From a virus (Duplodnaviria > Heunggongvirae > Uroviricota > Caudoviricetes), in IMG/VR virus record IMGVR_UViG_2923302340_000001: DNA of 48,684 nucleotides. The stretch is one strand, 5' to 3'. The notes under the pieces are model-generated. The model did not search any database. It saw only the letters and a list, made by a program, of their open reading frames with translations, and was not told the origin of the DNA. Of this stretch, positions 5,163 to 31,045 are shown in pieces. Position 1 is the stretch's first letter; the number at the start of each line of letters is the position of its first letter. A program made the translations under genes and the position numbers.

Positions 5163-5736
5163 TATCTTTAATGTTAGCTTGTTGGATGTTTTACCTCCTA
5201 ACTTAGCTAGCGATCCCAACGTGATAGCTATGTCGAAAGCTATCGATGATGAACTACAAGCAATTAACAATTTAATATATAAGACAGAAATATATAGCGT
5301 TGTTGATAACCTGGATTCAGTTGTCCTCGATCATTTAGCTTGGCAATGGAATGCTGATACATGGAGGGATAGTTGGCCTGTATCGTTAAAGCGTTCTGTT
5401 TTCAAATCAATAATACGAACAAAGCGAATAAAGGGTACAAGGGCAGCGGTTGAAGATGTAGTAAATAGCTTGGGGGGAGAGGTAAACATAATAGAATGGT
5501 TTGAAACATCACCACCTGGCGAACCATATACAGCCTCAATTGTTGCTTCGATTAACTCTTTTGATGGTGCCGTTCCTTCGAAAGAGATGTTGGAAGATAC
5601 GTTAAGAAGTATCAAGAGCGCAAAGTCGGCAAGAACATTATTTACATTTTCGCAAGCAGCCAATGTTTCTGGTGGTGTCGGTATTGTTGGTGCTTGTCAG
5701 CCTGTGTCTTATATACGATTAATTGGCGAGTGTTAA
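5155..5736 (+). CDS. tail protein I-like (P2 gpI family)
   Basis: 193 aa; N-terminus ...LLDVLPPNLASDPNVIAMSKAIDDEL... resembles gpI family. Confidence 0.55.
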   Translation: MADIFNVSLLDVLPPNLASDPNVIAMSKAIDDELQAINNLIYKTEIYSVVDNLDSVVLDHLAWQWNADTWRDSWPVSLKRSVFKSIIRTKRIKGTRAAVEDVVNSLGGEVNIIEWFETSPPGEPYTASIVASINSFDGAVPSKEMLEDTLRSIKSAKSARTLFTFSQAANVSGGVGIVGACQPVSYIRLIGEC

Positions 5737-5766
5737 TTCGCAATTTGTTTATTCAAGGAATTAAGC

Positions 5767-7656
5767 GTGAGTAAATTATTATTTACGATGACTGACGCCG
5801 GGCGTCAGGAGTTGGTTAATGCCAACAAAACAGGAACAAATAAAGTTGAGATTGTTTCTGTTGGTTTAGGTGGTAGATATTATGTCACGTCAACCTCACA
5901 AACAAATATAACAAACGAAATAAAACGACTTACCACAATAGGTGGCAAAGTTGTTTCCCCTGATACAATTCATGTAACGGCGAAGGATGATAGTAAAGAT
6001 GAGTATGTTGTCCATACAATAGGATTGTATACAAATAAGGGAACGTTGTTTGCTGTATACTCGCAAGAACAAGCAATAATAAATAAAGCATCATCTACTA
6101 TTGCTTTAATATCAAGTGACATAGCAATCAAGACTCTTGATACTAAAAATATTATATTTGGTGATATTGAGTTTATTAATCCTCCCGCGACCGAAACTGT
6201 TGTTGGGGTTGCAAGATTTGCTAATGAACAAGAAATTGATGCAGGTACAGATGATTCCCTTGCTGTTTCAGCAAAGCGGCTTAAGCAAGCCATTGTGAAA
6301 CATGAGCAATCACGTAATCATCCTGATGCAACTTTAACCTCAAAAGGCTTTGTTCAACTTAGCAGCGCCACCAATAGCACGTCTGAAACGCTTGCTGCGA
6401 CGCCTAAGGCTGTTAAGGCAGCATATGACCTGGCTAACGCTAAATACACCGCACAGGACGCTACCACTGCGCGGAAAGGGATTGTTCAGCTCAGTAGTGC
6501 CACCAATAGCACGTCTGAAAAGCTAGCAGCAACACCAAAGGCTGTTAAGGAAGCGTATGATCTTGCGGCCGGAAAGGCTCCTTCCAATCACACGCATTCG
6601 TGGGATCAGATTACAAATGTGCCTGTAGCTTCACTGACAGTAAGAGGAATCACTCAGCTTAGTAGCGCCACCAATAGCACGTCTGAAAAGCTAGCAGCAA
6701 CACCAAAGGCTGTTAAGGAAGCGTATGATCTTGCGGCCGGAAAGGCTCCTTCCAATCACACGCATTCGTGGGATCAGATTACAAATGTGCCTGTAGCTTC
6801 ACTGACAGTAAGAGGAATCACTCAGCTTAGTAGCGCCACCAACAGCACGTCTGAAACTCTGGCTGCGACACCGAAAGCTGTTAAGGTGGTAATGGATGAA
6901 ACAAAAAAGAAAGCCCCCCTCAACAGTCCGGCTCTGACTGGAACGCCAACAACGCCAACAGCACCAAATGGGACTAATAATACTCAGATCGCAAGCACAG
7001 CTTTCGTTATGGCTGCGATTTCCGCACTTGTAGACTCGTCACCTGACGCACTGAATACGCTGAACGAGCTGGCCGCCGCGCTTGGTAATGATCCAAATTT
7101 TGCAACCACCATGACTAACGCGCTTGCGGGTAAGCAACCGAAGGATGCCACCCTGACGGCGCTGGCAGGACTTGCTACAGCAGCAGATAAACTCCCTTAT
7201 TTTACAGGGGCAGATCGTGCCGCGTTAACCGCACTGACAAGTGTTGGACGTGCCATTCTTAGTAAGCCCAGCACACAGGGGGTTCTTGATTACCTTGGTT
7301 TACGAGAAGCGGCAAAACGGGATGTAGGGACAGGAGCAAATCAGATACCTGATATGAGTTTATTCGCGTCAATTAATACCGTAACGGCTGCTGCGCAAAA
7401 ATTTCCGTCTGGATTAATTTTACAGTGTGGCCAGTTGAATGGTGCCCCGAATGTATCTTCAACATACGGGATGAGGTTCCCGATGACGTTCTCAAGAGTC
7501 ATTGCTGTCGTAGTTACATTGAACGTTACTGGCGCGGCAGGGCAGCCGACTGTATCGGCGACAAATGTCCAGAACACTGGATTTGATATTACAGTGTCGC
7601 CCGGTTCAGGATATGGTTCATCTGCTGATGCGTATTACATTGCAATGGGATATTAA
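5767..7656 (+). CDS. tail fibre protein (constant N-terminal part plus currently expressed C-terminal cassette)
   Basis: GTG start; 629 aa; repeated ...[26 protein letters not shown]... fibre repeats; hix-like crossover site inside the coding region at 7283..7308. Confidence 0.8.
6487..6822 (+). repeat. near-perfect tandem duplication (2 x 168 bp) inside tail-fibre gene
   Basis: 6487..6654 and 6655..6822 differ at 2 positions; flanked by diverged copies of the same 56-codon unit. Confidence 0.9.
7283..7308 (+). other. candidate recombinase crossover site (hix/gix-like) inside fibre gene
   Basis: TTCTTGATTACC TT GGTTTACGAGAA: 26 bp with imperfect dyad, close to Hin hixL consensus as recalled. 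Confidence 0.5.
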
Positions 7657-7660
7657 CGAA

Positions 7661-8080
7661 ATGTCATATTTTTATTCTGCATCGACAAACGGATTTTATT
7701 CGACTGAATTTCACGGCACCAATATTCCTGATGATGCAGTGGAAATCTCGGAATCAGAGTGGAAAACACTGATTAATTCACAGAGTGTCACAAAAATGAT
7801 TACCTGTGGTGAGGACGGTCACCCTGTCATTGTTGACCGTCCTTCTCCAACACCAGAACAATTAGCCTTAATAAATGATGAAAAGAAATCTGCACTGATA
7901 GCAGAAGCAACGAATGTAATAGCGCCGCTTCAGGATGCGGTTGATTTAGGTATGGCAACAAATGATGAAACGAAACTGTTACTGGCATGGAAAAAATATC
8001 GCGTGCTATTGATGCGTATTAATACTTCAACAGCACTCGATATTGAATGGCCTACGCCTCCGGCAGTTCAGGCCAGATGA
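7661..8080 (+). CDS. tail fibre assembly chaperone
   Basis: ATG 5 nt after fibre stop; C-terminus ...[28 protein letters not shown] typical of fibre assembly proteins (track start 7565 overlaps fibre gene). Confidence 0.7.
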
Positions 8081-8654
8081 CATCCGGCGCTGTGCTGGTA
8101 TCTGTTGCCGTCACCGCGTCAATGTAATCCAGCACAGCGTTAAGGCGGGTTGTTTCTGCCTGCGTCAGCTTTCGCCCAGCCTGTAATTTCAGTTGAATCA
8201 GACTAATGGAAGCCATTGCAGCATCAATCAGTGACTGGCGCTGTGCTTCTGCCGCTTCTACTGCGGCACCGTGTTGTGCCTCAACATCCGTCACCCATTT
8301 CTCACCATCCCATTTATCGTATGGCGTTAACGGGGCGATAGTGGTTGTATTTTCAGGATAGTCGCCCGGTGCAGTTATTTCTTTGGCGTCACCCGTTTCG
8401 GTGTTATAGACGATTTCACCACGATGGTCTGGCACATATTCCCATGAATTTAAATCCACAGAACGGCAGATTGCATAACCAGCCTTATGTATGCCGGGGG
8501 CATCTAAACAAGAATATGCCGGAATACCAACACCTACCGCAAGATATTCAGTTGATGCGGAAATATATTCCTTTGTCTCACTGTCATAGTTGTAAACGAT
8601 GATGTTTCCTTCCTGTACGGCAATAAGTTCATTATTCAATATCGCGCTATTCAT
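8052..8654 (-). CDS. tail fibre assembly chaperone, alternative cassette
   Basis: 200 aa; C-terminus ...[24 protein letters not shown]; convergent with 7661..8080. Confidence 0.7.
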
Positions 8655-9104
8655 TATGCAGCTCTCACAATATAGTTAAATGCAATATTTCTCGGACGGG
8701 TTTCACGCCCACCAGGAATTTGAAAAGCATTAGCGGTTGTAGATCCGCCTTCCTGATTAATTCCTGTTGTATAAATACCACTCACACCATTTTGCAATGC
8801 AAATACTGTTGCGGTTCCAGGCCCACCACCGGGCCCAAAATACTTAAGTTCGAACTTTTTAATATCATCACTCTGAATATTCAATAAAGCACGTCCTGTA
8901 TCAATGCCGCGTCCATCATCCCAGCCACGAATAAACTCACCGCGTAAATCAGGAAGTTTTCCTGACGGGTATGCTTTGGCAAGAGTTGGATATTTCACCT
9001 TATCAAAGGCAGCACCGTTGCATTTCAGCCAGCCCGTTGGAGGGGTTGCGGAGGGCCACGGAACAGGTACACCAACAGGCAGCGCCGAACCTTCCCCAAA
9101 CCAA
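8654..9104 (-). CDS. promoterless alternative tail-fibre C-terminal cassette B
   Basis: Shares a 232-bp direct repeat (8881..9112 vs 9367..9599) including the crossover-like site with cassette A; no ATG; motif KYPTLAKAYPSGKLPDLRGEFIRGWDDGRGID; ends ...RPRNIAFNYIVRAA. Confidence 0.45.
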
Positions 9105-9116
9105 CGTTTTTATGCA
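9091..9116 (-). other. candidate crossover site (cassette B)
   Basis: Plus strand CTTCCCCAAACC AA CGTTTTTATGCA; minus strand carries the TTGGTTT core in inverted orientation relative to 7283..7308; overlaps stop of cassette A. Confidence 0.4.
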
Positions 9117-9640
9117 GCCCTCACGATAAAGTTAAATGCAATATTTCGTGGACGGGTTTCACTCCCGCCAGTATTACCGATACTCCCTCGTGAATGAAGT
9201 GTCGGTGATGGAATCAGAGTTCCTCCGGCATCGGCAGCATCAAGCCCCCGGCCTTGCGTATATGCTCTTCTGAAGATTGTCGCCAGTTCCCATTCCTCTT
9301 TTGAATCATACCCATCGTTGGCAACAACAATATGGCGGTGTTTTTCCAGCATCCCAGTCTGAATGCTCAATAAAGCACGTCCTGCATCAATACCACGCCC
9401 GTCATCCCAGCCACGAATAAACTCACCGCGTAAATCAGGAAGTTTTCCTGACGGGTATGCTTTGGCAAGAGTTGGATATTTCACCTTATCAAAGGCAGCA
9501 CCGTTGCATTTCAGCCAGCCCGTTGGAGGGGTTGCGGAGGGCCACGGAACAGGTACACCAACAGGCAGCGCCGAACCTTCCCCCAAACCAACGTTTTTAA
9601 CTTCGTGAACTGAGCTATCTAATAGCATTTTCACTAACAT
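9110..9640 (-). CDS. alternative tail-fibre C-terminal cassette A
   Basis: 176-aa ORF; codons downstream of the crossover-like site are in the frame needed for fusion to the fibre constant part (...DYL | GLGEGSALPVGVPVPW...). Confidence 0.5.
   Translation of the reverse strand: MLVKMLLDSSVHEVKNVGLGEGSALPVGVPVPWPSATPPTGWLKCNGAAFDKVKYPTLAKAYPSGKLPDLRGEFIRGWDDGRGIDAGRALLSIQTGMLEKHRHIVVANDGYDSKEEWELATIFRRAYTQGRGLDAADAGGTLIPSPTLHSRGSIGNTGGSETRPRNIAFNFIVRAA
9578..9603 (-). other. candidate crossover site (cassette A)
   Basis: Plus strand TTCCCCCAAACC AA CGTTTTTAACTT; minus strand AAGTTAAAAACG TT GGTTTGGGGGAA; 45 bp from invertase start. Confidence 0.45.
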
Positions 9641-9647
9641 AAACGGG

Positions 9648-10217
9648 ATGCTTTTTATGCAAATTGGCTATATTCGCGTATCAACAAATGACCAGAATAC
9701 AGATTTACAACGTAATGCTCTGAACTGTGCAGGATGTGAGCTGATTTTTGAGGATAAAATCAGTGGAACGAAGTCAGCCAGACCGGGATTGAAAAAACTG
9801 CTCAGAACGTTATCAGAAGGAGACACGCTGGTTGTCTGGAAGCTGGACAGGTTGGGTAGAAGCATGAAACACCTGATCACTCTTATTGAGGAACTACGGG
9901 AAAAAGGTGTTAATTTCCGTAGTCTGACGGACAGCATTGATACATCAACCCCTATGGGGCGTTTCTTTTTTCACGTCATGGGGGCTTTAGCAGAAATGGA
10001 GCGTGAATTAATTGTTGAGAGAACATTGGCTGGACTGGCAGCAGCTCGCGCACAGGGCCGCATTGGTGGGCGCCGCCCGAAGCTGACAAAAGAACAGCAT
10101 GAGCAAATAGCAAGGCTGATTAAAAACGGTCACGAGAGGAAACAACTGGCGATCATTTACGACATTGGTATATCAACGATTTATCGCTATCACCCTGTAG
10201 GAAGTGATTCAGCTTAA
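9648..10217 (+). CDS. DNA invertase, Hin/Gin/Cin/Pin-type serine recombinase
   Basis: N-terminus (M)QIGYIRVSTNDQNTDLQRNAL, ...TLVVWKLDRLGRSMKHL..., ...GRFFFHVMGALAEMERELIVERT..., C-terminal HTH; alternative ATG at 9657. Confidence 0.9.
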   Translation: MLFMQIGYIRVSTNDQNTDLQRNALNCAGCELIFEDKISGTKSARPGLKKLLRTLSEGDTLVVWKLDRLGRSMKHLITLIEELREKGVNFRSLTDSIDTSTPMGRFFFHVMGALAEMERELIVERTLAGLAAARAQGRIGGRRPKLTKEQHEQIARLIKNGHERKQLAIIYDIGISTIYRYHPVGSDSA

Positions 10218-10420
10218 ACAGGAAGATAGTTTTTCCTGCGATGATGCCCTATCTACGCTTTACCGCAGGTTTCCGGCTGGGAATCATTGACTGGAGTTAG
10301 GCCAGTAGTATGATGCTCGCAACACGAGATCCGATTTAGATCCTTTTACTGGTGGATTATCGTTCGATTAGCGAGAGACTTCGTGCATGACCGAAAGTGT
10401 TGTGGTAGAGTTCTCTTAAA

Positions 10421-13261: not shown

Positions 13262-13560
13262 TGAGAACATTAGATGAGGTGATTGCCAGCCGTTCACCTG
13301 AAAGCCAGGCGCGAATTAAAGAAATGGCAGATGAGATGATTCTTGAGGTCGGCTTGCAGATGATGCGTGAAGAACTCCAGTTATCACAAAAACAGGTTGC
13401 TGAGGCGATGGGTATAAGCCAGCCAGCAGTAACAAAGCTGGAGCAGCGCGGAAATGATTTAAAGCTGGCGACATTAAAGCGTTACGTTGAAGCTATGGGA
13501 GGCAAATTAAGCCTGGATGTTGAGCTTCCTACAGGAAAGCGAGTAGCGTTCCATGTCTAA
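13261..13560 (+). CDS. HigA-like HTH antitoxin (XRE family)
   Basis: 99 aa; HTH ...SQKQVAEAMGISQPAVTKLE... Confidence 0.55.
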   Translation: MRTLDEVIASRSPESQARIKEMADEMILEVGLQMMREELQLSQKQVAEAMGISQPAVTKLEQRGNDLKLATLKRYVEAMGGKLSLDVELPTGKRVAFHV

Positions 13561-13568
13561 CATAATGT

Positions 13569-13587
13569 AAGGCCCCATTGGGGCCTT
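13569..13587. terminator. bidirectional intrinsic terminator
   Basis: AAGGCCCC-ATT-GGGGCCTT between convergent genes. Confidence 0.5.
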
Positions 13588-13593
13588 ACTTAT

Positions 13594-13878
13594 TTACTTA
13601 CCATTTTTGCGGTTTTTTTCGGACTTCATAAGCTGGCTAACGCGCCCTGGTGTGATATTTAACATGCGGCTTACTTCAGCTTGTGATCCTACTTCCTCTA
13701 CTAGCGATGCAACATAGCGAGATTTTCCTGAGGAGGTTAATCCATTATATGTTGCTCGTACGACTTTTCCCTGAGCTTCTCTCATATCAACTAATGCCTG
13801 AGCAACCTGCTCAAAACCTTTAATTGTTACTTCTGTTAATGCTCGAATAGCATCAATTTCAGATTTTTGTTTAGCCAT
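13594..13878 (-). CDS. small HTH DNA-binding protein
   Basis: ATG at 13878 (MAKQKSEIDA...); ...SQAEVSRMLNITPGRVSQLM... HTH. Confidence 0.4.
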   Translation of the reverse strand: MAKQKSEIDAIRALTEVTIKGFEQVAQALVDMREAQGKVVRATYNGLTSSGKSRYVASLVEEVGSQAEVSRMLNITPGRVSQLMKSEKNRKNGK

Positions 13879-13925
13879 TTGGCACCTCAAATTGTTTAAA
13901 ATGTGTTAATTACAAAATTCAGCCG

Positions 13926-13944
13926 ATACCATGTTCAATGGTAT
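13926..13944. promoter_or_regulatory. palindrome ATACCAT-GTTCA-ATGGTAT upstream of 13594..13878
   Basis: 7-bp perfect arms in the promoter region of the minus-strand HTH gene. Confidence 0.3.
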
Positions 13945-14034
13945 AGCATTGCTGAAATGTCTTTTTCAAGACCTTGCCAATAAGCTAAACAAAAATGTTT
14001 AATGCTTCGCCTAAAAAAACACCAGTTACTATTA

Positions 14035-14145
14035 TTTATATAATTATAGATTTATATAAAAAGTGCTTTACATGTGGGAAAAAATTTCCTAAGGTTATAC
14101 CCGAAACCGAGCGATACCCGCCCTGGTTAAACCGGAGATAACCCG
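14035..14145 (+). promoter_or_regulatory. repeated promoter/leader cassette, copy 1
   Basis: ~110 bp nearly identical to 23415..23525 and 30666..30775: AT palindrome, TTTATATAAA, TTTACA-17 nt-TAAGGT, conserved leader ACCCGAAACCGAGCGATACCCGCCCTGGTTAAACCGGAGA, then ATG. Confidence 0.45.
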
Positions 14146-14526
14146 ATGAGCATGATTAAAATCCGCAAAAACGCTTTCCTTAAAATTCAAACTATCCTGG
14201 CTGGTTCTGTTGGCGTGATTTGCCGTTCTTCCTCAAGCCGCATCGATGACGGCTACGATGATGAGTATCGTGTGTCCTCATGCGATGAGGCTTTAACCTG
14301 GCTGAAGGAGAATCAGGAACGTGCCCAGGTATATCTGGAAACAGAGAACGGCAATCAGATGCTGCGTATTAGCGGTCGTTATGGATTTGAAACTACATTC
14401 ATGGCCTATTTTAATCAGGCTTACTTTGACAAGGAGTTGGCTTGGTACACTGATCGCATGAGCAAAAGCGAGCCAGCCCCGATTACACCGCCGAACAATA
14501 AACCATTTTTATTCCTCGTTAAGTAA
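14146..14526 (+). CDS. hypothetical protein (first gene behind cassette copy 1)
   Basis: 126 aa; no motif recognised. Confidence 0.35.
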   Translation: MSMIKIRKNAFLKIQTILAGSVGVICRSSSSRIDDGYDDEYRVSSCDEALTWLKENQERAQVYLETENGNQMLRISGRYGFETTFMAYFNQAYFDKELAWYTDRMSKSEPAPITPPNNKPFLFLVK

Positions 14527-23414: not shown

Positions 23415-23525
23415 AAATATATAATTATATATTTATATAAAAAGTGCTTTACAGGTGGGAAAAAATTTCCTAAGGTTATACCCAAAACCGAGCGATACCC
23501 GCCCTGGTTAAACCGGAGAAATCTG
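23415..23525 (+). promoter_or_regulatory. repeated promoter/leader cassette, copy 2
   Basis: TATATAATTATATA (23418..23431), TTTATATAAA, TTTACAGGTGGG..., conserved leader, ATG at 23526. Confidence 0.45.
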
Positions 23526-24593
23526 ATGAATAAACAAGTAATTATTTCTGACTGGATCAACAACCCTAACAGCCTGTTGAGCACTGATACTGGCTATAGA
23601 TTACGTCATGTTAATGGCCGTATGGTCAAAAGCGATGAGCACGAAACCTTTTTCGTTGTTGAAGACGATGGACGTCTTTATGAGGATGGTCACTCTTATG
23701 AATCCCAAACAGGTTGTATCCCTGCAGAGTTGGTAGACGTAACAGAAAAGCTGCGCAAAGCATGGCTTGAACAGCAGCAGCGCGGAGATGATTACGTAAA
23801 TACCTATCAGGAGCGCCAGAACGCGCGTCTTGCCCGATATATTGCTCGTGCAGAAAAAGCCAGAAAAGAAGGTGCGGTGGCGCATAAGCGAGCGCATGAA
23901 CTGTTGGATGTGATCCCGTTAGGCCAGCCGATTTTAGTTGACCATTATAGCGCGAAAGGCCATCGCCGCCGTTTGTCTAAAGCTGATGCGTTATTCAGAA
24001 AATCGTTTGTTGAGTGTGAAAGCAGAGCATCGTACTACGAAAGCAAAGCCGCAGGTGTCGGCCGTAATGGAGTTTCGTCTGATGATCCTGATGCGCTATT
24101 TAAGTTGCTTCGTAAGCTGCAAGGCTGCATGAAGTCACACATCAAAATGAAGGCCGCAAATAAGGCTATTCGCAAATACAAAAAAGACCAATTACAGCAG
24201 CTTTCCGCATTAATTGACCTTGAGTTTACTGAAAGCGAAGCCAAAGGGTTACTCGCCGGAGATTTCTGTGGGCACATTGGCTTCCCTTCATACTCACTGA
24301 GTAACAATAATGCCGAAATCAAACGACTACAGAGCCGTATTAAGGAGCTTGAATCGGTCAAGTCTGTAACAGGAGCACAGCGCGAAGAATACGACGGCTT
24401 TTCTATGGAGATAGATCCAGAGGATAACCGTATCCTGTTTTATTTCCCTGGCAAACCAGAGGCAAACATTCGTTCGCTGCTTAAATCACGCGCCTTTAAG
24501 TGGAGTCCAACCCGTAATGCATGGGTTCGCAAGATTACTCCAAACGCCCTGGCTGATGCCCGATATCTGAAAGAATCGCTATTGAAAGCCTGA
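23526..24593 (+). CDS. DUF3560-like protein (tentative)
   Basis: ATG 23526 directly after conserved leader (track start 23376 would translate the promoter cassette); 355 aa. Confidence 0.4.
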   Translation: MNKQVIISDWINNPNSLLSTDTGYRLRHVNGRMVKSDEHETFFVVEDDGRLYEDGHSYESQTGCIPAELVDVTEKLRKAWLEQQQRGDDYVNTYQERQNARLARYIARAEKARKEGAVAHKRAHELLDVIPLGQPILVDHYSAKGHRRRLSKADALFRKSFVECESRASYYESKAAGVGRNGVSSDDPDALFKLLRKLQGCMKSHIKMKAANKAIRKYKKDQLQQLSALIDLEFTESEAKGLLAGDFCGHIGFPSYSLSNNNAEIKRLQSRIKELESVKSVTGAQREEYDGFSMEIDPEDNRILFYFPGKPEANIRSLLKSRAFKWSPTRNAWVRKITPNALADARYLKESLLKA

Positions 24594-30665: not shown

Positions 30666-30775
30666 ATTATATAATTATAGGTTTATATAAAAAGTGCTTT
30701 ACAAGTGGGAAAAAATTTCCTAAGGTTATACCCGAAACCGAGCGATACCCGCCCTGGTTAAACCGGAGAAATCTG
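30666..30775 (+). promoter_or_regulatory. repeated promoter/leader cassette, copy 3
   Basis: ATTATATAATTATAG, TTTATATAAA, TTTACAAGTGGG..., conserved leader, ATG at 30776. Confidence 0.45.
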
Positions 30776-31045
30776 ATGAAAGTACAAGACCGTGAAGTAG
30801 TAAAAAACCTCCTGCAATACCTGACCTCAAAAAACCTGACGGGCAGCGTTGAGTTCCGTGAAGCGTTAAAACATTTCAACGTCACTACGGTTTATCGTTG
30901 GGAAAACAAACATTCTGAAAGACCGTATGTGGTGGATGTTTTTGCGCCTGATATTGAGTGCGGTTTTGAGCGTCATTCGTTCAAGGAGAAACATTCTGCT
31001 GATTTTTTTTGTGAGGTTGTATGTGCGGCAGGAGATGATGAGTGA
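30776..31045 (+). CDS. hypothetical protein (first gene behind cassette copy 3)
   Basis: 89 aa; acidic Cys-containing C-terminus. Confidence 0.3.
   Translation: MKVQDREVVKNLLQYLTSKNLTGSVEFREALKHFNVTTVYRWENKHSERPYVVDVFAPDIECGFERHSFKEKHSADFFCEVVCAAGDDE

What the first reader, a model, noticed from the sequence alone, without database searches (positions are those of the whole stretch)
7283..10217. Multi-site Hin/Gin-type tail-fibre inversion switch with two stacked alternative cassettes
A hix-like 26-bp site inside the fibre gene (7283..7308) and inverted partners at 9091..9116 and 9578..9603 share the core TTGGTTT. Two alternative fibre C-termini (9110..9640, 8654..9104) lie head-to-tail on the minus strand, each beginning with the same 232-bp repeat, plus an alternative chaperone (8052..8654) and an adjacent invertase. 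Fusion at the central TT of site 1 and site A gives an in-frame fibre (...DYL|GLGEGSALPVGVPVPW...). Three sites allow nested inversions (host-range switching), more complex than the two-site Mu G segment. Known biology, but the layout is worth documenting.
Basis: partly seen in the sequence, partly recalled or inferred. Interest (0 to 1): 0.55.

Follow-up and report, generated by a model that had tools for sequence, protein, structure and literature searches.

The report
Three-site invertible phage tail-fibre switch
A 48-kb E. coli phage-plasmid carries a small version of the known p15B "Min"-type DNA-inversion system, which swaps the tip of its tail fibre among three alternatives; it is a real but ordinary example, and one of the alternatives is knocked out of frame in this record by a missing base.

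Summary
Three 26-bp crossover sites (7283-7308, 9091-9116, 9578-9603) score 26-35 bits against a matrix built from cix, gix and Min-like sites. The next best window hit scores 4.4 and the best of 200 shuffles 13.7.

The rest of the layout is also present:
- a fibre gene with Sc and Sv parts, and its chaperone U
- an inverted chaperone U'
- two stacked promoterless collar-type fibre tips that share a ~235-bp 5' repeat
- a Din-family serine invertase (82% PinE, 76% Gin, 75% Cin, 97% the invertase of L002/L006, the latter with a multi-cassette inversion region)

One detail is wrong. Only the outer cassette (site 9578) fuses in frame, giving a 669-aa fibre. The inner site has C4 where two sibling assemblies have C5, so its fusion truncates at 535 aa.

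Sibling contigs encoding the identical invertase carry the predicted site1×siteA hybrid junction (L014, L024). A B-type hybrid junction is also seen (L020). Several short-read contigs end exactly at the predicted crossover bases, so the sites are used.

IncY plasmids carry up to seven such sites, and p15B Min is the published precedent. Verdict: a new member of a known kind, of modest interest.

The parts
5767..7656 (+). Tail-fibre gene S as currently assembled (629 aa). The constant part Sc runs 5767-7295 and the variable tip Sv (Gp53-like_C) runs 7296-7656.
   Evidence: ORF. Pfam Phage_fiber_2 x4 and Gp53-like_C. The exact protein is AVS50194.1 / WP_107236352.1.
7283..7308 (+). Crossover site 1, inside S: TTCTTGATTACC TT GGTTTACGAGAA. 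The central TT is at 7295-7296.
   Evidence: Matrix score 29.0 bits against a shuffle maximum of 13.7. Sibling contig L025 ends exactly after the central dinucleotide.
7661..8080 (+). U: tail-fibre assembly chaperone for Sv (139 aa).
   Evidence: Pfam Caudo_TAP, E = 2e-30.
8052..8654 (-). U': TfaE-like tail-fibre assembly chaperone (200 aa), silent in this orientation. It overlaps U tail to tail by 29 bp.
   Evidence: Pfam Caudo_TAP, E = 3e-32. 86% identical to e14 TfaE. 85% identical to the chaperone that follows an expressed outer-type fibre in prophage L029.
8654..9102 (-). Inner promoterless fibre-tip cassette Sv' (Collar domain). It is out of frame with the crossover point in this record.
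   Evidence: Translation. Pfam Collar. Isoform model.
9091..9116 (-). Crossover site A (central AA at 9103-9104). Its right half contains the stop codon of the outer cassette.
   Evidence: Matrix score 25.7 bits. Hybrid site1/siteA junctions in L014 and L024.
9094..9097 (.). C4 homopolymer inside site A. It is C5 in siblings L023 (the only difference in 7.7 kb of that assembly) and L012. This is a 1-nt deletion or a sequencing error.
9110..9589 (-). Outer promoterless fibre-tip cassette Sv'' (Collar domain, 159 aa plus stop). The mechanical ORF runs on to ATG 9640.
   Evidence: 98% aa identity to the C-terminus of an expressed 507-aa prophage fibre with the same junction.
9578..9603 (-). Crossover site B (central AA at 9590-9591), 53 bp upstream of the invertase start codon.
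   Evidence: Matrix score 34.9 bits. B-type hybrid junction in L020. Contigs L018 and L019 begin at the predicted divergence base.
8869..9103 (.). 5' repeat of the inner cassette. It is the direct-repeat partner of 9355-9590.
   Evidence: Family D1. Blast of the segments.
9355..9590 (.). 5' repeat of the outer cassette.
9657..10217 (+). Din-family serine DNA invertase (186 aa).
   Evidence: Pfam Resolvase + HTH_7. Mu Gin structures 4m6f/3uj3, E = 6e-91. 97% identical to the invertase of L002/L006, 82% to PinE, 76% to Gin, 75% to Cin.
9675..9746 (+). Stretch homologous to the annotated 72-bp P1 Cin recombinational enhancer (gene nt 19-90). Putative Fis-dependent enhancer.
   Evidence: P1 annotation. 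59/72 identical to P1, 57/72 to Mu, 68/72 to e14. Synonymous sites are more conserved here than in the rest of the gene in 4 of 5 comparisons.

Best explanation
The region is a three-site, Min/Pin-type (Din-family) site-specific inversion system. It changes the receptor-binding tip of the tail fibre of a ~48-kb phage-plasmid (CP028194.1).

Mechanism. The serine invertase (9657-10217) pairs site 1, inside the fibre gene, with either inverted partner, site A or site B. This is presumably helped by Fis bound at an enhancer in the first ~90 bp of the invertase gene. The enzyme exchanges strands at the central TT/AA dinucleotide.

With X = 7296-9103 and Y = 9104-9590, four arrangements are reachable:
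- XY, as sequenced: Sc-Sv fibre of 629 aa with chaperone U.
- X'Y, from site 1 x site A: Sc fused to the inner collar tip, with chaperone U'.
- Y'X', from site 1 x site B: Sc fused to the outer collar tip (669 aa), then the untranslated inner cassette, then U'.
- Y'X, from a further A x B inversion.

The single TfaE-like chaperone U' serves both stacked collar tips, as in the multi-cassette IncY (p15B-like) plasmids.

In this particular record a missing C in site A puts the inner tip out of frame, so X'Y would give a truncated 535-aa fibre.

What is shown: the parts, the sites, the reading frames, and the recombinant junctions in siblings. What is inferred: Fis dependence, the host-range consequences, and activity in this very strain.
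For: Sites and statistics.

Invertase identity and catalytic residues.

Enhancer homology and synonymous-site constraint.

Frames of the modelled isoforms.

Recombination products in sequences encoding the 100%-identical invertase protein:
- L014 (GCA_005280595.1) and L024 (ENA metagenome, 99.9% identical to the window's X segment) carry gttttgccgc-TTCTCGTAAACC-AA-CGTTTTTATGCA-gccctcacga. This is the inner half of site 1 joined to the outer half of site A, with X inverted relative to Y.
- L020 has Sv lying directly against the invertase flank through a B-type hybrid site.
- L024 and L017, from the same metagenome, share a terminal 55-mer at site A, which marks a branch node in the assembly graph.
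- Logan contig L025 ends at ...TAAACCAA, exactly at the crossover.
- L018 and L019 start at CCCAAACC, the predicted point where the parental and recombinant sequences diverge.

The layout is independently assembled: L012 (47.8-kb contig) and L023 show the same stacked arrangement.

The outer tip is functional elsewhere: a 507-aa P2-like prophage fibre has a C-terminus 98% identical with the identical junction ...VLDYLGLGEGSALP..., followed by a chaperone 85% identical to U'.

Precedent: IncY plasmid L006 has 7 sites and 5 stacked cassettes with one chaperone, and the internal sites have the same form, TTCYCCYAAACC-AA-CGTTTTTATGCC. The p15B Sc/SvP protein is among the homologues (P0060).
Against: - No read-level data exist for this strain, so inversion in CP028194.1 itself is not shown.
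- The exact predicted fusion proteins (669 and 659 aa) are absent from the 15-billion-protein collection.
- The window-allele hybrid junction gave no hit in viral, JGI-metagenome or GTDB-representative contigs.
- No contig shows the outer cassette of this plasmid lineage fused to Sc. L020 is too short to tell whether its plasmid has two or three sites.
- The deletion in site A also shifts the outer three bases of that half-site, which could lower recombination at A in this record.
- The two G-N13-C Fis-like cores are 49 bp apart start to start. Fis binding is untested, and conservation of the enhancer stretch is partly explained by the conserved catalytic motif it encodes.
- Contig-end arguments depend on assembler behaviour.
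Confidence: 0.85

Rival explanations
1. Frozen relic. The module was imported by recombination from a P1-like or e14-like element and no longer switches in this plasmid. The sites and the silent cassettes are decaying, and the frameshift in site A is the first visible sign.
For: - There is a 1-nt deletion inside site A and the inner cassette's reading frame.
- Some relatives on the same backbone have no invertase module at all (L001).
- No isoform of this exact plasmid other than XY was found as a complete protein.
Against: - The invertase ORF is intact, and the identical protein occurs in siblings that do show recombinant junctions.
- The outer cassette, U' and sites 1 and B are intact.
- The 99.9-100% identical X segment occurs in the X'Y state in a metagenome (L024), and Logan contig L025 ends exactly at the crossover.
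Confidence: 0.08
2. Assembly artefact. The two stacked cassettes come from mis-joining reads of a mixed population, or from collapse or expansion of the ~235-bp repeat. The true molecule would then have one silent cassette, as in Mu or e14.
For: The repeats are 94-96% identical. The region is invertible and so heterogeneous in reads. The homopolymer discrepancy hints at long-read indel error.
Against: - The same inner-to-outer junction is contiguous in an independent short-read assembly (L023 spans window 7303-9400 with zero mismatches), and the layout recurs in the 47.8-kb contig L012.
- Stacked cassettes with the same site form are common in IncY plasmids.
Confidence: 0.03
3. The extra cassette is only a partial tandem duplication with no separate function, so the element behaves as an ordinary two-site switch that uses sites 1 and B only.
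For: The two cassettes share their 5' ~235 bp and their last ~60 bp (families D1 and D2).
Against: - The two tips are only 61% identical in protein and differ in the middle of the variable part.
- Each tip type has separate, well-conserved relatives. The outer type occurs in ~370 E. coli genomes next to tfaE.
- Site A is demonstrably used: hybrid junctions occur in L014 and L024.
Confidence: 0.04

Closest known systems
Min multiple-inversion system of plasmid p15B and its relatives on IncY / P1-like phage-plasmids (e.g. NZ_AP022163.1, locus L006)
   Same: - More than two crossover sites.
- 5'-truncated collar-type Sv cassettes stacked head to tail. Each is preceded by a site whose outer half carries the stop codon of the previous cassette (TTCYCCYAAACC-AA-CGTTTTTATGCx).
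- One TfaE-like chaperone at the end of the stack.
- The invertase is 97% identical to that of L002/L006, and site B lies just upstream of the invertase gene.
- The p15B Sc/SvP fibre is a homologue (P0060).
   Different: - Only three sites and two stacked cassettes, giving 4 arrangements, against 7 sites in L006.
- The system sits on an unrelated ~48-kb backbone with an IncFII-type RepA and a P2/Mu-like tail, next to repA, rather than on a P1-like genome.
- The expressed partner is a Gp53-like_C tip with its own chaperone U.
P segment and Pin invertase of the cryptic prophage e14 (E. coli K-12: stfP-tfaP / tfaE-stfE / pinE)
   Same: - Same gene order: fibre, chaperone, inverted chaperone, inverted collar-type tip, invertase.
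- PinE is 82% identical to the invertase, TfaE 86% identical to U', and StfE 53-58% identical to the two cassettes.
- The sites are of the same form (CTCTCGAAAACC-TT-GGTTTGGGAGAA and TTCTCCCAAACC-AA-CGTTTATGAAAA).
   Different: e14 has two sites and one silent cassette, and it is a defective prophage.
G segment / Gin of phage Mu and C segment / Cin of phage P1
   Same: - Din-family serine invertases, 76% and 75% identical to this one.
- 26-bp gix and cix sites with the same half-site consensus.
- The enhancer lies in the 5' part of the invertase gene, as annotated in P1.
- Switching between S-U and S'-U' changes host range (established knowledge).
   Different: - Two sites and two states only.
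- The Sv parts are far longer and unrelated in sequence to the collar tips.
- In P1 the site next to cin lies at the 3' end of the gene, whereas here, as in Mu, it lies upstream of the 5' end.
R64-type shufflon (Rci)
   Same: Several invertible segments that swap the C-termini of one adhesin-like protein (pilV).
   Different: Rci is a tyrosine recombinase acting on asymmetric sfx sites. Here the enzyme is a serine recombinase (Pfam Resolvase), so this element is not a member.

Membership tests
Din (Hin/Gin/Cin/Pin/Min) serine DNA-invertase systems | A small serine recombinase with an N-terminal catalytic domain carrying the nucleophilic Ser (YxRVSTxxQ) and a C-terminal HTH. | tested here: met
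   Pfam Resolvase 1e-51 and HTH_7 1e-12. Aligns end to end with the Mu Gin structures 4m6f/3uj3 at E = 6e-91. GYIRVSTNDQ is conserved with Cin, Gin and Pin.
Din (Hin/Gin/Cin/Pin/Min) serine DNA-invertase systems | 26-bp crossover sites made of two imperfect 12-bp inverted half-sites around a 2-bp core. Partner sites lie in inverted orientation and have identical cores. | tested here: met
   Site 1 has core TT on the + strand; sites A and B have core AA, which is TT on the - strand. Half-sites match TTMTCNNAAACC. Matrix scores are 25.7-34.9 bits against 13.7 for the best shuffle. The half-site of site A is shifted by a 1-nt deletion.
Din (Hin/Gin/Cin/Pin/Min) serine DNA-invertase systems | A cis-acting Fis-dependent recombinational enhancer, typically within the 5' coding part of the invertase gene. 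| tested here: inconclusive
   Gene nt 19-90 are 59/72 identical to the annotated P1 enhancer and 68/72 to e14 pin. Synonymous positions there are more conserved than in the rest of the gene (p = 0.02, 0.10, 0.0005, 0.8, 0.008 in five comparisons). G-N13-C cores lie at nt 22 and 71. Fis binding and enhancer function cannot be tested with these tools.
Din (Hin/Gin/Cin/Pin/Min) serine DNA-invertase systems | The DNA between the sites actually inverts, with exchange at the core dinucleotide. | tested here: met
   This was shown for siblings, not for this molecule. Exact site1/siteA hybrid junctions occur in L014 and L024, and a B-type hybrid occurs in L020. L010 and L011 are in the flipped state. 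Contig ends fall at the crossover bases.
p15B Min-type multiple (overlapping) inversion regions | More than two crossover sites, so that invertible segments overlap or nest. | tested here: met
   There are three sites, one in one orientation and two in the other, giving four arrangements.
p15B Min-type multiple (overlapping) inversion regions | Several promoterless 3' fibre-gene cassettes stacked head to tail. Each begins at a crossover site, and all share the constant 5' gene part and a chaperone. | tested here: met
   Two Collar cassettes lie on the - strand at 8654-9102 and 9110-9589. Site A overlaps the stop codon of the outer cassette, and a single U' follows the stack. The organisation is the same as in L006 and L007.
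p15B Min-type multiple (overlapping) inversion regions | The invertase is orthologous to Min of p15B. | not tested
   The enzyme is 97% identical to the invertase of L002 and of the multi-cassette plasmid L006 (WP_001165547.1). A paper reports invertases 98.5% identical to Min on P1-like plasmids (PMC6906374).
R64-type shufflon | Tyrosine recombinase Rci acting on sfx sites. | tested here: not met
   The recombinase is of the serine (Resolvase) type.

The most novel reading that the evidence does not exclude
The C4/C5 run lies inside crossover site A and at the very start of the inner cassette's reading frame. It could be a genuine slipped-strand (homopolymer) switch layered on the inversion switch. 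One tract would then control both whether the inner fibre tip can be translated and how well site A recombines, giving a two-tier phase-variation device. Separately, the whole invertase-plus-cassette module may move as a unit between P1-like IncY plasmids and this unrelated phage-plasmid backbone.
Probability: 0.08. Interest if true: 0.5.

Novelty: new member of a known kind. Interest (0 to 1): 0.3.

Why it matters
The region documents that the multi-cassette Min-type design is not confined to P1/p15B-like plasmids. It also occurs, in a minimal three-site form, on a different family of ~48-kb phage-plasmids that includes isolated infective phages such as Yersinia phage vB_YpM_39.

There are three practical consequences:
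- Annotation pipelines call the silent cassettes as separate "phage tail protein" genes and miss the alternative fibres.
- Short-read assemblies of these plasmids break at the sites.
- Host-range predictions from one assembly see only one of up to three receptor-binding tips.

The single-base difference in site A also shows how easily one alternative is lost, or mis-sequenced. None of this changes current understanding of serine-invertase switches.

Tried and rejected
- Predicted isoforms as whole proteins. A homology search with the modelled 669-aa Sc+outer fusion gave only mosaic relatives. Exact look-ups of the 669-aa and the repaired 659-aa fusions were negative. This is probably because short-read assemblies break in the fibre repeats and at the sites.
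- Exact-pattern scans for the window-allele hybrid junction GCTTCTCGTAAACCAACGTTTTTA gave 0 hits in IMG/VR, JGI metagenomes and GTDB representatives. Those collections hold few E. coli strains.
- No record in the phage, plasmid or complete E. coli genome collections covers 80% or more of 5700-10300 or of 6900-10300, so the window's own record is not in those sets.
- Sandmeier 1992, Johnson 2015 and the P1 genome paper are not held. The Min precedent therefore rests on citations in held papers and on the IncY loci analysed here.
- I considered the pSLy3 phage-plasmid group as the backbone family and rejected it, because that group belongs to the SSU5 supergroup.
- The simple sigma-70 scan found no convincing invertase promoter between site B and the start codon.
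- NCBIfam gave no equivalog-level name for any of the six proteins.
- No fourth site exists between U and U' or elsewhere in the window.

Full report
**What the window is.** The window is the complete 48,684-bp plasmid CP028194.1 of assembly GCA_003030245.1. It is a phage-plasmid with P2/Mu-like baseplate and tail genes and an IncFII-type repA just downstream of the region of interest. Its backbone is ~97% identical to many 46-52-kb E. coli plasmids. Over the constant part of its fibre gene it is ~93% identical to isolated phages such as Yersinia phage vB_YpM_39. Some relatives have no invertase module, for example NZ_CP020497.1. Others carry a two-site module at the same position (L010, L011, L028).

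**Checking the observation.**
- The fibre gene S (5767-7656, 629 aa) has four Phage_fiber_2 repeats and a Gp53-like_C tip.
- U (7661-8080) and U' (8052-8654, minus strand) are Caudo_TAP chaperones.
- Two Collar-domain cassettes lie head to tail on the minus strand (8654-9102 and 9110-9589).
- A Resolvase+HTH_7 protein follows at 9657-10217.
- The cassettes share a 5' direct repeat, 8869-9111 against 9355-9597 at 94% ungapped, and also their last ~60 bp.

The three 26-bp sites are site 1 TTCTTGATTACC-TT-GGTTTACGAGAA, site B (rc) AAGTTAAAAACG-TT-GGTTTGGGGGAA and site A (rc) TGCATAAAAACG-TT-GGTTTGGGGAAG. For comparison, the P1 sites are TTATCCAATACC-TT-GGTTTAAGAGAA and CAATCCTAAACC-TT-GGTTTAAGAGAA, and the Mu site is TTATCCAAAACC-TC-GGTTTACAGGAA, taken from the annotated records.

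A position weight matrix built from 13 sites of other elements scores the window sites 34.9, 29.0 and 25.7 bits. The next best position in the window scores 4.4, and the best of 200 shuffles 13.7. The training sites are partly homologous modules. The score therefore shows membership of this site family rather than independent discovery, but chance is excluded.

**The one error.** Site A has a run of four C (9094-9097), where site B and every homologous site examined in other elements have a full 12-nt half-site. The inner cassette's frame therefore reads *KRWFGEGSALP, while the outer reads VKNVGLGEGSALP.

I modelled the inversions with exchange at the central dinucleotide:
- Site 1 x site B gives an in-frame 669-aa fibre (...VLDYL|GLGEGSALPVGVPVPW...).
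- Site 1 x site A gives ...DYLGLGKVRRCLL... and stops at 535 aa.
- Adding one C restores a 659-aa fibre.

Two sibling assemblies have C5. One is L023 (GCA_012305205.1). Across its two contigs, 7.7 kb in total, this indel is the only difference from the window. The other is L012. The C4 is therefore either a private deletion or a homopolymer sequencing error, and I cannot tell which.

**What the enzyme and the cis elements are.** The invertase aligns end to end with the Mu Gin crystal structures (E = 6e-91) and keeps the catalytic serine motif. Its identities are 97% to the invertase of IncY plasmids L002 and L006 (L006 has the multi-cassette inversion region), 82% to e14 PinE, 76% to Gin and 75% to Cin.

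The P1 record annotates the Cin enhancer at gene nt 19-90. The homologous stretch here (9675-9746) is 59/72 identical to P1, 57/72 to Mu and 68/72 to e14. That stretch also encodes the conserved catalytic motif, so I compared synonymous positions. Codons 7-30 show fewer synonymous changes than the rest of the first 140 codons in four of five comparisons (p = 0.02, 0.10, 0.0005, 0.8, 0.008). This fits an overlapping DNA-level constraint. Fis binding itself is untested.

I had no reads, but public contigs encoding the 100%-identical invertase protein provide a substitute.
- L014 (GCA_005280595.1) and L024 (ENA metagenome ERZ28616196, 99.9% identical to the window's X segment) contain gttttgccgc-TTCTCGTAAACC-AA-CGTTTTTATGCA-gccctcacga. 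This is the inner half of site 1 joined at the core to the outer half of site A. The segment 7296-9103 is inverted relative to the outer cassette and the invertase. It is exactly the predicted site 1 x site A product.
- In the same metagenome, the contig carrying the invertase and the outer cassette (L009/L017) stops at window 9098 and shares its terminal 55-mer with L024. That is what a branch node looks like when two arrangements coexist.
- Logan contig L025 ends at ...TAAACCAA, precisely after the central dinucleotide of site 1.
- L018 and L019 begin at CCCAAACC, the first base shared by the parental and recombinant versions of site B in their allele. In each case the other end of the terminal k-mer is unique sequence. 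A repeat alone should therefore not stop the contig there, which points to heterogeneity. This argument depends on assembler behaviour and is weaker than the contiguous junctions.
- L020 shows an Sv cassette lying directly against the invertase flank through a B-type hybrid site.
- L010 and L011, on the same backbone, are in the flipped state with the collar tip fused to Sc.

I found no contig in which this lineage's outer cassette is fused to Sc. The exact predicted fusion proteins and the junction pattern were also absent from the searched collections.

**Is the outer cassette a working tip?** Its variable part occurs at 90-97% DNA identity in ~370 complete E. coli genomes, always next to a tfaE-type gene. 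In one P2-like prophage (L029) a complete 507-aa fibre ends with 159 residues that are 98% identical to the outer cassette. The junction is identical...[25 protein letters not shown]..., and it is followed by a chaperone 85% identical to U'. The predicted site 1 x site B product thus has a natural expressed counterpart, and U' is the expected partner for both collar tips. The two tips are 61% identical to each other, so they are distinct specificities rather than a trivial duplication.

**Mechanism.** Let X = 7296-9103 and Y = 9104-9590. Site 1 is inverted relative to sites A and B, so four arrangements are reachable:
- XY, the arrangement as sequenced.
- X'Y, from site 1 x site A.
- Y'X', from site 1 x site B.
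- Y'X, from a later A x B inversion once A has been flipped.

In Y'X' the outer tip is translated and stops at the TAA inside site A. The inner cassette is then an untranslated spacer, and U' follows. In Y'X the outer tip would be followed by U instead of U', which is probably a non-productive pairing (inference). Sites A and B are direct repeats in the sequenced state. Din invertases disfavour deletion between direct repeats (established knowledge of the family), but homologous recombination across the ~235-bp repeats could delete or add cassettes. That would account for relatives with one, two or five stacked cassettes.

**Comparison with known systems.** The closest known design is the Min region of p15B and its relatives on IncY P1-like plasmids. 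L006 has seven sites, five stacked collar cassettes and one chaperone. Its internal sites have the same form as site A, with the previous cassette's stop codon inside the site. The p15B Sc/SvP protein appears among the fibre homologues (P0060). [quoted passage not shown] The e14 P segment has the same gene order and close proteins but only two sites. Mu G and P1 C are the textbook two-site versions. The R64 shufflon is excluded because it uses a tyrosine recombinase.

**Verdict.** This is a genuine three-site Din-family tail-fibre inversion switch whose sites are used in sibling plasmids. It is a new member of a known kind, sitting on a backbone where this multi-cassette form has not, to my knowledge, been described. 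One cassette is disabled in this record by a single-base homopolymer difference. Interest is modest.

Noticed in passing
window 6486-6886: A 168-bp tandem repeat, 2.4 copies at 95% match, lies inside the constant part of the fibre gene and encodes exact 56-aa duplications. Siblings carrying the identical invertase protein have shorter fibres: 529 aa in L022, a clean 300-nt repeat-mediated deletion, and 558 aa in L012. Fibre length therefore varies by repeat copy number.
   Followed up: partly
window ~14036-14149, 23418-23529, 30667-30779: A ~113-bp dispersed repeat occurs three times in the plasmid at 94-96% identity. It appeared as secondary blast hits of sibling contigs. Its nature is unknown.
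   Followed up: no
window 8052-8080; also L002 4014-4042 and e14 L027 3518-3546: The two convergent chaperone genes U and U' overlap tail to tail by 29 bp. The overlap is conserved in e14 (tfaP/tfaE) and in IncY plasmids, so the same DNA encodes both C-termini on opposite strands.
   Followed up: no
L010 9300-9854, L011 7818-8372, L001 (no invertase), against window 9657-10217: Plasmids with a ~96-97% identical backbone carry, at the same position between the fibre gene and repA, invertases only 65-68% identical to this one, or no invertase module at all. The whole fibre-tip/invertase block is therefore exchanged as a unit within this phage-plasmid family.
   Followed up: partly
window 9591-9656: No sigma-70-like promoter passed the scan between site B and the invertase start codon. 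Transcription of the invertase may come from inside the invertible DNA or from a weak promoter overlapping site B, and so might depend on orientation.
   Followed up: no
window 13551-14035 against L012, L014, L016: Siblings lack or replace ~485 bp of the window here. Their alignments jump from window 13550 to 14036, next to one copy of the dispersed repeat. This may be a small indel or mobile segment.
   Followed up: no
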